A DNA stretch of 16,330 bases from an uncultured Clostridia bacterium (GTDB taxonomy: Bacteria; Bacillota; Clostridia; Christensenellales; Aristaeellaceae), in the NCBI GenBank assembly GCA_937886445.1, contig CALGBY010000119.1, positions 1 through 16,330 of the forward strand. Direction: 5' to 3'. Below are positions 5,397 through 13,751 of this stretch, in pieces. The number at the start of each line of letters is the position of its first letter. The first letter of the stretch is position 1. The notes under the pieces are model-generated. The model saw only the letters and a program-made list of their open reading frames with translations. It did no database searches and had not been told where the DNA came from. Made by a program: the position numbers and the translations under genes.

Positions 5397-5732
5397 TCAT
5401 CTCATCCTTCGGTCGGTCATCTGTTTTGTCTGGTCTCTTCCCGTATAGATCACCGCGCTGACCTTTACCGCCATTTCCTCATCATCCACGAGGAAATAGA
5501 TATAATAATTTCTGACTCTTGTCTTCCGTATGTCCGCGTCTTTCCATGGCTGTTCATCAACCGTTTTGATGCGCTTGGGCATTTTTGACAGAGACTTTAT
5601 CTCTTTCTCGAAAGCTTCCTGCAGATTCAGGGCTGCCTGCGGTGCAGTCAGTTCTCTTGCAATATACAGAACTATGCTTCTGATGTCCTGCTGTGCTTCC
5701 GGGAGAATGATCACACGGTAAATATCACACAT
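5397..5732 (-). CDS. Type II toxin, ParE/RelE family
   Basis: ATG 5732 overlaps the antitoxin stop by 8 nt (ATGTGTGA), so the ORF-track TTG at 5741 is less likely. YRVIILPEAQQDIRSI...NYYIYFLVDDEEMAVKVSAVIYTGRD fits the ParE/RelE (PF05016-type) pattern. Confidence 0.85.
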   Translation of the reverse strand: MCDIYRVIILPEAQQDIRSIVLYIARELTAPQAALNLQEAFEKEIKSLSKMPKRIKTVDEQPWKDADIRKTRVRNYYIYFLVDDEEMAVKVSAVIYTGRDQTKQMTDRRMR

Positions 5733-6042
5733 GCGGATCAAGTATCTCCTGCCTCAGGGATGAAAAGAACTCGTCCGCAGGCATACCTTCTCCCGCCTTT
5801 GCCTCAGCAAGACCGCGGGCCATTTTTGCGTCAAACTCTTCCTTCGTCATTTCGTCCAGAGCAAGAGGTTTACCTGCCGGGAGCGAAGGCCTGAACGGAA
5901 GCCCCTTCCAATGGATGATTTGCCTGTAGAACATATTGATCCCGTTAGATGCGGAAATCCCAAGATCGGCAAGAATTGCTTCTGCCTGCTCTTTGATCGC
6001 GGGTTCAACCCTTGCGGTTACGTTCGAACTTCTGATTGCCAT
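5725..6042 (-). CDS. Type II antitoxin, RelB/DinJ family
   Basis: From ATG 6042 the protein starts MAIRSSNVTARVEPAIKEQAEAILADLGISASNGINMFYRQIIHWKGLPF, a RelB/DinJ signature. GAAAGG lies upstream. The ORF-track start 6108 lies upstream of the predicted promoter, so it is rejected. Confidence 0.85.
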   Translation of the reverse strand: MAIRSSNVTARVEPAIKEQAEAILADLGISASNGINMFYRQIIHWKGLPFRPSLPAGKPLALDEMTKEEFDAKMARGLAEAKAGEGMPADEFFSSLRQEILDPHV

Positions 6043-6068
6043 ACAAAGCACCGCCTTTCTATGCTGCA

Positions 6069-6103
6069 ATCTTATCACTTTGTATGTCAGAGTGCAATAC
6101 AAA
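6069..6103 (-). promoter_or_regulatory. Toxin-antitoxin promoter with overlapping inverted-repeat operator
   Basis: On the minus strand: TTGCAC (6097-6092), 17-nt spacer, TAAGAT (6074-6069). Inverted repeat tttgtat (6079-6085) N11 atacaaa (6097-6103) overlaps the -35 box and spacer, as expected for antitoxin autoregulation. Confidence 0.65.
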
Positions 6104-6150
6104 ATCATGATTTTTGATACCGTGTCCCTGAAGGCCGGTTTTTCTGCTCC

Positions 6151-12530: not shown

Positions 12531-12680
12531 GCCCGCGTTTCTCTTTTGAACGCCTTCACGGGGGCGGGCGGCAGCCGCGAAAAACGGTGAGAATATCATC
12601 GGCCTGCTGGCTATTCGGGAAATCTGTTCGTATATTCTTATGTAAGCCTGAGAGCATAACAGATGAAAAGGAGGCCCATT

Positions 12681-12941
12681 ATGGATATGATGAACAGGAT
12701 TGAGCTGAAGGATGAGCTGCTGCAGAATGTGACCGGCGGAGATCAGAAGCATTATGATGAGCTTTGCGAAAAGGCGGAAGCCTTTGTGAAAGTATGCGTT
12801 GAAAATGGGCTGAGCAAGGCTTACTATCAGTGTGAAATGAAAAAAATCATGGATGATTATATCGGAAAAGGCATGCTGGCAGGCAACGAACCCGGAAACC
12901 TGTGGAGAATCGTAGAGTATTACAGCCACAAGTTAAGGTAA
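12681..12941 (+). CDS. 86-aa precursor with double-glycine (GG) type leader peptide
   Basis: GGAGG (12670-12674) lies 6 nt before ATG 12681. The leader MDMMNRIELKDELLQNVTGG has hydrophobic residues at -4, -7 and -12 and ends in GG, with the predicted cleavage before codon 12741. The 66-aa core is helical-looking, near neutral and has 3 Cys. Confidence 0.6.
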   Translation: MDMMNRIELKDELLQNVTGGDQKHYDELCEKAEAFVKVCVENGLSKAYYQCEMKKIMDDYIGKGMLAGNEPGNLWRIVEYYSHKLR

Positions 12942-13037
12942 AAACAGTCAGCCTGTCTTTCAGAATGGATCACACAAAAACAGGTGAAGCTGCTTTCCAC
13001 CGAAGGACTGCTGTACGGCTCCCTCCCCGGGATGCAT

Positions 13038-13062
13038 CGAAGGGTCGCAGCCTTCGGTTTTT
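13038..13062 (+). terminator. First terminator-like hairpin after the peptide gene (H1 of module 1)
   Basis: cgaagg (13038-13043) pairs with ccttcg (13051-13056), followed by gTTTTT (13057-13062). Stronger 10-bp versions with T-runs sit at 13343-13369 and 13550-13577. Confidence 0.55.
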
Positions 13063-13135
13063 GATCCGTTCCCAAGGAAGCGATGATCAAAAGAGGCTGC
13101 CTGATTGATCAGTGATTCCGTAATCTGCTTCCGAT

Positions 13136-13185
13136 CGAAAAATGAGCGCTTCCGGTGTATGCTTTTCACCGGAAGCGCTTTTTAC
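13136..13185. terminator. Bidirectional intrinsic terminator (H3 of module 1)
   Basis: Perfect 13-bp stem agcgcttccggtg (13145-13157) / caccggaagcgct (13167-13179), flanked by gaaaaatg upstream and ttttt downstream. Confidence 0.7.
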
Positions 13186-13231
13186 AGGAGGCGGATGAAT
13201 CGAACGAAAGCAGGTAATGCCCAGCTTTCGT

Positions 13232-13335
13232 TCGAAGGGCGCAGTCCCGTTTCCTCCCCAAGGATGCATCGAAGGGCCGCAGCCCCGTTCCCTCCCCAAG
13301 GATGCATCGAAGGGCCGCAGCCCCGTTCCCTTCCC
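13232..13335. repeat. Tandem 37/38-bp repeat units (about 2.8 copies, running into module 2)
   Basis: aggatgcatcgaagggccgcagccccgttccctcccca (13261-13298) and aggatgcatcgaagggccgcagccccgttcccttccc (13299-13335). They are preceded by the degenerate copy tcgaagggcgcagtcccgtttcctcccca (13232-13260). Confidence 0.85.
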
Positions 13336-13647
13336 GGGATGCATCGAAGGGCCGCAGCCCTTCGATTTTCTATCCGCAGGCGGCGACATGTGCGTCGCCG
13401 AGGAGCGGCTGGAAGCCGCTTCCGATATTGGTTTCCGGCCGTAAAATGAGCGTTTTAGGTGTATACGGATCACCGAAAATGCCATTTTACAGGAAACCGA
13501 TGTGATCGTGTGAAAGCGGGTTACGCCCCGCTTTCGCACGAAAGGATGCATCGAAGGGCCGTAGCCCTTCGATTTTTGATCCGCAGGCGGCGACATGCGC
13601 GTCGCCGAGGAGCGGCTGGAAGCCGCTTCCTATATCCGTTTCCGGCC

Positions 13648-13687
13648 GTAAAAAGAGCGTTCCCGTTTTACGGAAACGCCTTTTTAC
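13648..13687. terminator. Bidirectional hairpin (H3 of module 3), likely terminator of the nucleoside hydrolase gene
   Basis: gtaaaaagagcgttcccg pairs with cggaaacgcctttttac. The minus-strand reading gives a hairpin followed by cucuuuuuac, ~65 nt past the hydrolase stop. The paralogous hairpin of module 2 sits at 13441-13490. Confidence 0.55.
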
Positions 13688-13751
13688 AGGAAACGGATGT
13701 AGTCGAAAGCAAGCGCGGCCTGCCCCGCTTGCTTTCGATGGGCGCAGCCCA

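What the first reader, a model, noticed from the sequence alone, without database searches (positions are those of the whole stretch)
12681..12941. Orphan double-glycine-leader peptide with an atypical 66-aa helical, Cys-containing core
The leader MDMMNRIELKDELLQNVTGG fits the LSxxELxxIxGG logic: hydrophobic residues at -4/-7/-12, then a GG cleavage site. This is the leader used by peptidase-C39 ABC exporters for class II bacteriocins and signalling peptides. The core (DQKHYDELCEKAEAFVKVCVENGLSKAYYQCEMKK...) is near neutral, rich in charged residues and has three Cys. That is unlike the usual cationic, Gly-rich bacteriocins. No C39/ABC transporter, immunity gene or modification enzyme is present in the window. 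The gene sits last in an operon with a TetR regulator and an FRG protein.
Basis: partly seen in the sequence, partly recalled or inferred. Interest (0 to 1): 0.62.

Follow-up and report, generated by a model that had tools for sequence, protein, structure and literature searches.

The report
Exported three-helix protein with double-glycine leader
This small gene encodes a 20-residue "cut-and-export" tag fused to a 66-residue acidic three-helix protein of a rare, unnamed family. It is one of about 38 such tagged genes in the genome; they probably share a single exporter encoded on another contig and a common specialised promoter.

Summary
The ORF at 12681-12941 is real, and its double-glycine (GG) leader is not a chance match. 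In 20 homologues, L-12, L-7, V-4 and GG are invariant. One homologue carries the same core behind a different, longer GG leader, joined exactly at GG|D.

The genome has one C39-ABC exporter, on contig C48. It is an NHLP-type three-gene cassette, and its peptidase domain is 70% identical to LahT150 with an intact Cys/His/Asp triad.

The core is an acidic, hydrophilic three-helix bundle (AlphaFold2 pLDDT 82-98). Its cysteines are not conserved, and it has no Pfam, NCBIfam or PDB relative. It is therefore unlikely to be a cationic pore-forming bacteriocin or a modified peptide.

A 66-residue cargo has a precedent in CtA, the substrate of PCAT1.

The gene probably does not depend on the TetR-FRG operon. 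It has its own ECF-sigma-type promoter (-35 box, 16 nt, CGTATA, then ATGTAAG). That box is shared with more than 25 other GG-leader genes here and is conserved in orthologues from other organisms.

Earlier scan reports had already noted GG-leader genes with a shared promoter box, in this genome and in another one.

Verdict: a new cargo family within a known export system. The function of the cargo is unknown.

The parts
12603..12650 (+). ECF-sigma-type promoter-like box. It has a degenerate -35 CTGGCT (12607-12612), a 16-nt spacer, a -10 CGTATA (12629-12634) and a downstream ATGTAAGCC box (12640-12648).
   Evidence: A 48-nt weight matrix was trained on 15 sites upstream of other GG-leader genes. 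It scores this untrained site at 18.5 bits. Third-order Markov genomes give 0.8 sites per genome at that score, against 31 observed. The same box lies 51-52 nt before the ATG in orthologue loci L011 (36.3 bits) and L022-24 (26.9-32.7 bits), and in same-species L021.
12670..12674 (+). Ribosome-binding site GGAGG, 6 nt before the ATG
   Evidence: Read directly from the sequence.
12681..12941 (+). Precursor gene: 86 aa plus a TAA stop
   Evidence: The same ORF was called in five near-identical metagenome sequences (P0002) and in the syntenic contig L021.
12681..12740 (+). Double-glycine leader, residues 1-20. L9, L14 and V17 occupy positions -12, -7 and -4. The G19-G20 codons are at 12735-12740.
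   Evidence: These columns are invariant in 20 homologues. P0021 has a different leader joined at the same GG|D junction. AlphaFold2 models a short low-confidence helix at residues 4-15 that is separate from the core.
12741..12938 (+). Predicted mature cargo: 66 aa, 7750.8 Da, pI 6.1. It is a three-helix bundle with helices at residues 22-42, 46-62 and 70-82.
   Evidence: AlphaFold2 gives pLDDT 82-92 over the core. The paralogue model has the same topology at pLDDT 94-98.
13036..13063 (+). First terminator-like hairpin plus T-run after the gene. It is part of a repeat-element copy.

Best explanation
The gene encodes an unmodified precursor of a small secreted protein.

**Shown**
- A 20-residue leader carries the complete recognition code of C39 double-glycine peptidases (L-12, L-7, V-4, G-2, G-1).
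- The leader is followed by a 66-residue acidic, hydrophilic core that is confidently modelled as a three-helix bundle.
- The genome encodes exactly one C39-peptidase ABC exporter. It belongs to an NHLP-type cassette on contig C48: a short HlyD-like membrane protein, TIGR03796 and TIGR03797. Its peptidase domain is 70% identical to the promiscuous LahT150 and has an intact C27/H102/D118 triad.
- The gene has a bipartite promoter-like box (-35 box, 16 nt, CGTATA, 5 nt, ATGTAAG) shared with more than 25 other GG-leader genes and conserved in orthologues.

**Inferred**
- An ECF sigma factor transcribes the gene as part of a regulon of about 38 GG-leader small proteins. The candidate sigma is the one on contig C56, whose own downstream small gene carries the same box.
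- The leader helix docks L9, L14 and V17 into the hydrophobic groove of the exporter's peptidase domain.
- The peptide is cut after G20.
- The unfolded 7.75-kDa cargo passes through the transporter cavity and folds outside the cell.

**Function of the cargo**
The function is not established. Because the cargo is acidic, soluble, folded and has no immunity gene nearby, I think it most likely acts by binding a partner, as a competition or signalling factor. Membrane permeabilisation seems less likely.
For: **Leader**
- The leader columns are invariant in 20 homologues from two subfamilies.
- P0021 has the same core behind a 35-residue MKTKEEL...QVVGG leader.
- Homologues P0021 and P0012 pass the TIGR01847 cut-off, at 19.3 and 16.3 bits against 15.7.
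- The genome-specific leader matrix places this protein in the top 38 of 10,944 ORFs, with a clear gap below it.

**Exporter**
- One C39 match exists in the genome, in a 730-aa open frame.
- TIGR03796 scores 915.7 bits against a cut-off of 853.3. The adjacent TIGR03797 scores 711.5 against 709.4. The C39, ABC_membrane and ABC_tran domains are all present.
- The match to LahT150 (6mpz) is 233 bits, E 1e-68, with 104 of 148 residues identical and the triad aligned.
- PCAT1 exports a 66-residue cargo and has no cargo-specific binding site (PMC6959990).

**Context of homologues**
- In three other organisms homologues sit inside arrays of GG-leader genes: L013, L016 and L023.
- G021, the only other homologue-bearing genome in the family sample, also has a C39-ABC gene.

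**Fold and chemistry**
- AlphaFold2 gives a three-helix core in both subfamilies.
- All cores have pI 4.2-6.1 and GRAVY -0.4 to -0.8.

**Promoter**
-. Of 18 untrained sites scoring at least 17 bits, 13 precede ORFs with GG-, GA- or AG-type leaders.
Against: - No experiment or expression data exist.
- The protein itself does not reach any curated leader model. It is the weakest-scoring member of the genome's GG set, with K at -11 and L at -8 where S/T and E are usual.
- Its -35 hexamer matches the consensus GTAGCC at only 3 of 6 positions.
- No terminator separates it from the FRG gene, so read-through from the upstream operon is possible.
- The exporter is on another contig, and its pairing with this substrate is inferred.
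- The genome is 89.5% complete, so a second exporter could be missing.
- The identity of the sigma factor is a guess.
- The cargo's function has no direct support.
Confidence: 0.75

Rival explanations
1. It is a classical unmodified class II bacteriocin. The 66-residue product would kill related bacteria, most likely through a specific receptor rather than by general membrane disruption.
For: - The leader type and exporter are those used by class II bacteriocins and microcins.
- The gene is a rare accessory gene: 1 of 200 genomes of the same family carries a homologue, and none of the 3 same-genus genomes does.
- Its GC content is low, 0.45 against 0.58-0.64 for its neighbours.
- In other organisms it lies in arrays of varied GG-leader genes. 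This pattern is typical of competition loci.
Against: - The core is acidic and hydrophilic in every member, not cationic, Gly-rich or amphipathic-hydrophobic.
- It matches no bacteriocin family in Pfam or NCBIfam.
- No immunity-like small membrane protein lies next to it in the window or at most homologue loci.
- The core is well conserved rather than hypervariable. Within the 92-aa subfamily, identities to the genome's own paralogue are 66-98%, and most are at least 84%.
Confidence: 0.15
2. It is a precursor of a post-translationally modified peptide (RiPP). The cysteines would be targets of a radical-SAM or lanthionine-type enzyme encoded elsewhere.
For: - The NHLP-type export cassette was first described with RiPP precursors whose modification genes can lie far away (PMC2887384).
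- The P0009 locus has a radical-SAM/SPASM-like gene fragment about 850 nt upstream, assigned from its cysteine motifs and not by a family search.
- This protein has three Cys.
Against: - Cys is not conserved. The count ranges from 0 to 3 per core, and the one position shared within the subfamily is His in the other subfamily.
- The core is long, conserved and confidently modelled as a helical bundle. It is not a short Cys/Ser/Thr-rich hypervariable tail.
- There is no modification enzyme in 16 kb.
- The leader is only 20 residues and has no NHLP or Nif11 homology.
Confidence: 0.07
3. It is a cytoplasmic small helical protein, for example a regulator or partner of TetR/FRG. The GG would then be a coincidence or only a hinge.
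For: - It lies 150 nt downstream of the TetR-FRG pair with no terminator between them.
- Three-helix bundles are common cytoplasmic modules, and the profile gives a weak hit to a Med15 KIX domain (E 9e-4).
- Other small GG-motif proteins here may be sigma-factor partners (note e1-3806550).
Against: - The full -12/-7/-4/GG code is invariant across homologues, and the leader is swapped at GG|D in P0021.
- Both AlphaFold2 models show the leader detached from the core.
- TetR-FRG synteny is absent at every homologue locus from other organisms.
- The promoter is shared with other GG-leader genes.
Confidence: 0.08

Closest known systems
CtA, the substrate of PCAT1 from Clostridium thermocellum (PMC6959990)
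   Same: Both are unmodified polypeptide precursors from Clostridia with a short GG leader (24 versus 20 residues) and a cargo of exactly 66 residues. Both are recognised through the leader only, and the function of the cargo is not described.
   Different: No sequence similarity was detectable; the family profile did not find CtA in the PDB. CtA is encoded next to its transporter, whereas this gene is on another contig. The exporter here is closer to LahT than to PCAT1 (233 versus 54 bits).
LahT / LahA system of Lachnospiraceae C6A11 and the NHLP/Nif11 export cassette TIGR03794/6/7 (PMC6363468, PMC2887384)
   Same: The exporter's peptidase domain is 70% identical to LahT150, and both ABC subunits score above the equivalog cut-offs. 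One promiscuous exporter serves many precursors with similar leaders and diverse cores. Substrates may be encoded far from the transporter.
   Different: LahA, NHLP and Nif11 substrates have long leaders of about 70-83 residues and short modifiable cores. This protein has a 20-residue leader and a long, folded, probably unmodified core. The HlyD-like partner here is only 222 aa and matches only the N-terminus of TIGR03794.
EbfG1-4 / PteB of Synechococcus elongatus (PMC4997328)
   Same: Both are small proteins (6-7 kDa after processing) with GG secretion motifs. They are exported by a C39-peptidase transporter, have no known domains, and have a non-antibiotic role (biofilm formation).
   Different: They come from a different phylum and share no sequence similarity. 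The ebfG genes lie next to pteB. No biofilm role is implied here.
Class II bacteriocins and peptide pheromones with TIGR01847-type leaders (lactococcins, plantaricins, ComC)
   Same: The leader logic, the GG cleavage site and the C39-ABC export route are the same.
   Different: Their cores are typically 20-60 residues, cationic and membrane-active (bacteriocins) or short (pheromones), and are accompanied by immunity or sensor genes. The core here is acidic, folded and stands alone.

Membership tests
Double-glycine-leader substrates of C39-peptidase ABC exporters (PCAT/AMS) | Gly-Gly (or GA/GS) at positions -2/-1 of the cleavage site | tested here: met
   G19-G20 are present and invariant in all 20 aligned homologues.
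Double-glycine-leader substrates of C39-peptidase ABC exporters (PCAT/AMS) | Hydrophobic residues at -4, -7 and -12 on a short helix. These are the recognition determinants in the LahT150 and PCAT1 structures (PMC6363468, PMC6959990). | tested here: met
   V17, L14 and L9 fill these positions, and the columns are invariant in the family. AlphaFold2 models a helix at residues 4-15 with low confidence.
Double-glycine-leader substrates of C39-peptidase ABC exporters (PCAT/AMS) | Score above the cut-off of the curated leader model TIGR01847 (15.7 bits) | tested here: not met
   This protein gives no hit at E<=1 and is not among the 27 genome matches. Homologues P0021 (19.3 bits) and P0012 (16.3 bits) pass. 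A genome-specific matrix gives this protein 16.4 bits, rank 38 of 10,944, with the next ORF at 11.9 bits.
Double-glycine-leader substrates of C39-peptidase ABC exporters (PCAT/AMS) | A catalytically competent C39-ABC exporter in the same genome | tested here: met
   The exporter is at C48:10917-13094(-). It carries C39, ABC_membrane and ABC_tran domains, scores 915.7 bits on TIGR03796, and has C27/H102/D118 aligned to the LahT triad.
Double-glycine-leader substrates of C39-peptidase ABC exporters (PCAT/AMS) | Actual cleavage after GG and export | not testable with these tools
   This needs an in-vitro protease assay or supernatant peptidomics.
Class II (unmodified) bacteriocins | Small cationic or hydrophobic membrane-active core, or a match to a known bacteriocin core family | tested here: not met
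   The core has pI 6.1, and the family range is 4.2-6.1 with GRAVY -0.4 to -0.8. No bacteriocin core family matches in Pfam or NCBIfam.
Class II (unmodified) bacteriocins | Adjacent immunity gene | tested here: not met
   None is recognisable in the window or at homologue loci. L011 has an uncharacterised membrane-protein fragment downstream, which remains inconclusive.
Class II (unmodified) bacteriocins | Antimicrobial activity | not testable with these tools
   This needs purified product and indicator strains.
NHLP / Nif11-type RiPP precursors | Long leader homologous to nitrile hydratase alpha subunit or Nif11 (TIGR03793 / TIGR03798) | tested here: not met
   No NCBIfam hit. The leader is only 20 residues.
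NHLP / Nif11-type RiPP precursors | Short hypervariable Cys/Ser/Thr-rich core and a modification enzyme | tested here: not met
   The core is conserved and helical, and Cys is not conserved. There is no modification enzyme in the window.
ECF-sigma-dependent promoters | Bipartite -35/-10 with a 16-17 nt spacer and a CGT-containing -10. This resembles B. subtilis sigma-W TGAAAC-N16-CGTATA, which I cite from general knowledge. | tested here: inconclusive
   The motif GTAGCC-N16-CGTATA recurs before GG-leader genes and is statistically enriched. In the window the -10 is perfect and the -35 matches 3 of 6 positions. No transcription start or sigma-binding data are available.

The most novel reading that the evidence does not exclude
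In this group of uncultured Clostridia the double-glycine/PCAT route may not be a bacteriocin pathway. It may instead be a dedicated secretion regulon controlled by an ECF sigma factor, serving about 38 small, mostly folded proteins: three-helix bundles, LysM modules, zinc-ribbon-like proteins and ferredoxin-like proteins.

The sigma factor's own small partner protein carries a GG-like export motif. The single LahT-like exporter could therefore both secrete the cargo set and remove the partner. That would couple exporter activity to activation of the regulon.

Under this reading, the family studied here would be a new kind of secreted three-helix effector within that system.
Probability: 0.2. 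Interest if true: 0.75.

Novelty: new member of a known kind. Interest (0 to 1): 0.45.

Why it matters
It adds an unnamed, rare family of folded acidic cargo to the double-glycine export system. Together with CtA and EbfG, it supports the view that C39-ABC exporters secrete small proteins as well as cationic peptides.

It also gives testable handles on how such scattered "orphan" genes are organised:
- one LahT-like exporter;
- about 38 leader-bearing genes;
- one shared ECF-type promoter box, which can be used to find further members and the controlling sigma factor.

For annotation, the leader-plus-promoter signature recovers small genes that curated models miss.

Tried and rejected
- **Family scans.** Pfam and NCBIfam scans of the protein gave nothing usable.
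- **PDB sequence search.** The family profile gave only a weak hit to the Med15 KIX domain (E 9e-4), which I treat as chance, and it did not find CtA.
- **Structure search.** Foldseek against the PDB gave nothing below E 0.9 for either model. The hits were generic three-helix bundles such as ribosomal protein S20.
- **Spurious homologues.** The exhaustive HMMER search returned two repeat proteins (P0006, P0008). I rejected them as repeat-driven or short-motif hits.
- **First leader regex.** My first loose regex for leaders returned 330 mostly spurious ORFs. I replaced it with the TIGR01847 genome scan and a score matrix.
- **Empty-site check.** Looking for an empty insertion site in same-genus genomes failed, because the only matching contig ends inside the FRG gene.
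- **Literature.** Searches found no paper linking ECF sigma factors to double-glycine-leader genes. That is absence within the searched library only.
- **Metal-site idea.** I considered a metal site (H24, with Cys or His at position 39) and dropped it. The two residues are 15 positions apart on one helix, and I could not test it.

Full report
**1. The observation**

GGAGG lies at 12670-12674, 6 nt before the ATG. The longer ORF from 12663 starts inside the ribosome-binding site.

The first 20 residues end in V-T-G-G, with L at -12, L at -7 and V at -4. The remaining 66 residues have three Cys, pI 6.1 and net charge about -1.

The window contains these genes:
- a hybrid histidine kinase;
- a GNAT/methyltransferase protein;
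- a RelB/ParE toxin-antitoxin pair;
- an XRE-family regulator;
- a VanW/G5 protein;
- a TetR regulator and an FRG-domain protein;
- a nucleoside hydrolase on the opposite strand.

It holds no C39 or ABC exporter, no recognisable immunity gene and no modification enzyme.

**2. Is the leader more than chance?**

Curated models do not reach the protein itself, so I used three independent tests.

(a) *Homologues.* An exhaustive HMMER search of 1.8 billion representatives found three true relatives. A profile search found 22 in all. They fall into two subfamilies: one of 83-108 aa like this protein, and one of 92 aa that includes a paralogue in this genome at C18:5420-5695. In the 20-sequence alignment the invariant columns are L-12, L-7, V-4, G-2 and G-1, plus four core positions.

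(b) *Leader swap.* P0021, from an NCBI assembly, has the same core behind a different 35-residue leader, MKTKEELDAIKEEVEMMKKKLKELNEEELKQVVGG. The two are joined exactly at GG|D. It is the first of four tandem genes that carry similar GG-ending leaders with unrelated cores; three of them share this long MKTKEEL leader. P0021 and P0012 pass the TIGR01847 cut-off.

(c) *Genome-specific score matrix.* I built a matrix from 30 other GG leaders of this genome. It places this protein at rank 38 of 10,944 ORFs. All 37 higher-scoring ORFs look like GG leaders, and there is then a drop from 16.4 to 11.9 bits.

The leader is real, although it is the weakest of the set.

**3. The exporter**

The genome (143 contigs, 89.5% complete) has one C39 match. 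It lies in a 725-aa gene on contig C48 with C39, ABC_membrane and ABC_tran domains.

- This gene scores 915.7 bits on TIGR03796, against a cut-off of 853.3.
- The next gene scores 711.5 bits on TIGR03797, against a cut-off of 709.4.
- The upstream gene encodes a 222-aa membrane protein that matches only the N-terminus of the HlyD-like TIGR03794.

This is the three-gene cassette that Haft et al. linked to precursors encoded far from their export genes (PMC2887384).

The peptidase domain is 70% identical to LahT150 (6mpz; 233 bits), with C27, H102 and D118 aligned to the catalytic triad. LahT150 needs only the last 13 or so leader residues. [quoted passage not shown]

No substrate gene lies next to the cassette. 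Its upstream ORFs look like ribosomal proteins L10 and L7/L12, which I judged from their sequences alone without a family search.

G021, the only other genome of the family sample with a homologue, also has a C39-ABC gene. The cassette scores above its cut-off in 6 of 31 genomes searched (30 relatives plus this genome).

**4. The cargo**

AlphaFold2 with the family alignment gives a low-confidence leader helix at residues 4-15 and a coil around GG. The core forms three helices at 22-42, 46-62 and 70-82, with pLDDT 82-92. The paralogue model has the same topology at pLDDT 94-98, with a disordered leader.

Neither model has a significant PDB neighbour. The profile finds no solved relative apart from a marginal KIX-domain hit.

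All 20 cores are acidic (pI 4.2-6.1) and hydrophilic. Cys counts range from 0 to 3. These properties argue against two readings:
- a cationic membrane-active bacteriocin;
- a Cys-dependent modified peptide.

A 66-residue cargo is exactly the size of CtA, the PCAT1 substrate (PMC6959990). Small non-antibiotic GG-motif proteins are also known, such as EbfG1-4 (PMC4997328).

**5. Context and regulation**

The TetR-FRG neighbourhood is kept only in another strain of the same species (L021). In other organisms the homologues have different neighbours:
- after an SDF-family transporter (L011);
- inside arrays of GG-leader genes (L013, L016 and L023).

I followed a lead from an earlier scan note on this genome (e1-3806549), which mentioned a shared promoter-like box. 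Upstream of most GG-leader genes I found the motif GTAGCC, 16 nt, tCGTATA, 5 nt, ATG(A/T)AA.

I trained a 48-nt weight matrix on 15 such sites, leaving out the window.
- It scores 12603-12650 at 18.5 bits.
- Third-order Markov genomes give 0.8 sites per genome at that score, against 31 observed.
- Of 18 untrained sites scoring at least 17 bits, 13 precede ORFs with GG-, GA- or AG-type leaders.

The same box lies 51-52 nt before the start codon in several loci, although the rest of the upstream DNA has diverged:
- the orthologues in L011 (36.3 bits) and L022-24 (26.9-32.7 bits);
- the paralogue type in L017 (40.4 bits);
- same-species L021 (18.6 bits).

The architecture resembles ECF-sigma promoters. 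The comparison with the sigma-W -10 CGTATA comes from my own knowledge and was not tested here.

An ECF sigma gene on contig C56 (Sigma70_r2 and r4 domains) is followed directly by this box and a 67-aa ORF containing ...DDDLAFVAAG. That makes it a candidate regulator.

In the window the -10 is perfect, but the -35 matches only 3 of 6 positions. No terminator precedes the gene, so read-through from the upstream operon cannot be excluded.

The gene's GC content (0.45) is well below that of its neighbours (0.58-0.64). The family is rare: 1 of 200 genomes of the same family carries a homologue, and none of the 3 same-genus genomes does. This fits a horizontally acquired cassette made of a promoter plus the gene.

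**6. Mechanism and verdict**

The best-supported reading is as follows.
- An ECF-type promoter drives the gene.
- The LahT-like peptidase domain of the single exporter recognises the leader through L9, L14 and V17.
- The precursor is cut after G20.
- A 7750.8-Da acidic protein is exported and folds into a three-helix bundle.

Shown are the sequence features, their conservation, the presence and integrity of the exporter, the predicted fold and the statistics of the promoter motif. Inferred are the pairing with the exporter, cleavage, export, the sigma factor and the function.

I place about 75% on this reading as a whole. The rivals are a classical bacteriocin (about 15%, which overlaps with the main reading as a possible function), a cytoplasmic protein (about 8%) and a RiPP precursor (about 7%).

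This is a new cargo family in a known export system. Earlier reports of this scan had already noted other GG-leader genes in this genome, and an ECF-promoter-driven GG-leader protein in a Victivallales genome. The general pattern is therefore not new to the scan. New here are the location of the exporter, the family itself, the leader swap and the quantitative promoter test.

Noticed in passing
window 12998-13730: The 0.8-kb spacer after the gene is built of repeated hairpin units (ATGCATCGAAGGGCCGCAGCCCTTCGAT plus a T-run) and a 118-nt pair. About 50 related copies are scattered over the genome, several of them next to other GG-leader genes on C88, C90, C131 and C134. The same spacer is only 484 nt in another strain (L021).
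   Followed up: partly
genome contig C56:18013-18812 (locus L025): An ECF sigma gene (166 aa) is followed at once by the GTAGAC-N16-CGTATC box and a 67-aa ORF, ...MMSDDDLAFVAAG|VEHPLSEEEQETRRRKEIKDN. A paralogous 59-aa ORF (...LSLDDLAFVAGG|VRSDEAKDEKQN) lies at C58:16597 behind the same box. The sigma factor is a candidate regulator of the GG-leader gene set, and its partner carries an export-like motif.
   Followed up: partly
genome-wide (e.g. C33:1045-2400, C52:47100-48280, C99:33900-35740, C64:5481-6180): About 38 ORFs carry GG leaders. They include tandem arrays with a long MKTKEELNALKEEVE.LNKKLAEL..EEL.QV.GG leader. By eye, the cargos include LysM-like modules (C58:15348, C34:20239), zinc-ribbon-like Cys pairs, a 2x[4Fe-4S]-ferredoxin-like core (C13:8610) and 85-aa beta-rich proteins; none of these was checked with a family search.
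   Followed up: partly
genome contig C48:8683-13774 (locus L002): The only C39 exporter cassette sits between a P-type ATPase and what look like the rplJ/rplL genes, with no substrate gene beside it. Its HlyD-like component is only 222 aa, far shorter than the 421-position TIGR03794 model.
   Followed up: partly
window 12681-12941: The gene's GC content is 0.45 against 0.58-0.64 in the flanking genes, which suggests recent acquisition. The empty-site check in same-genus genomes failed because the matching contig ends in the FRG gene.
   Followed up: partly
window 5397-6108 (-): A RelB-antitoxin / ParE-toxin pair with overlapping genes.
   Followed up: no
locus L011:2959-3300: The closest orthologue (P0005) is followed 220 nt downstream by a gene fragment for a multi-pass membrane protein. 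It is the only candidate for an immunity-like neighbour seen at any homologue locus.
   Followed up: no
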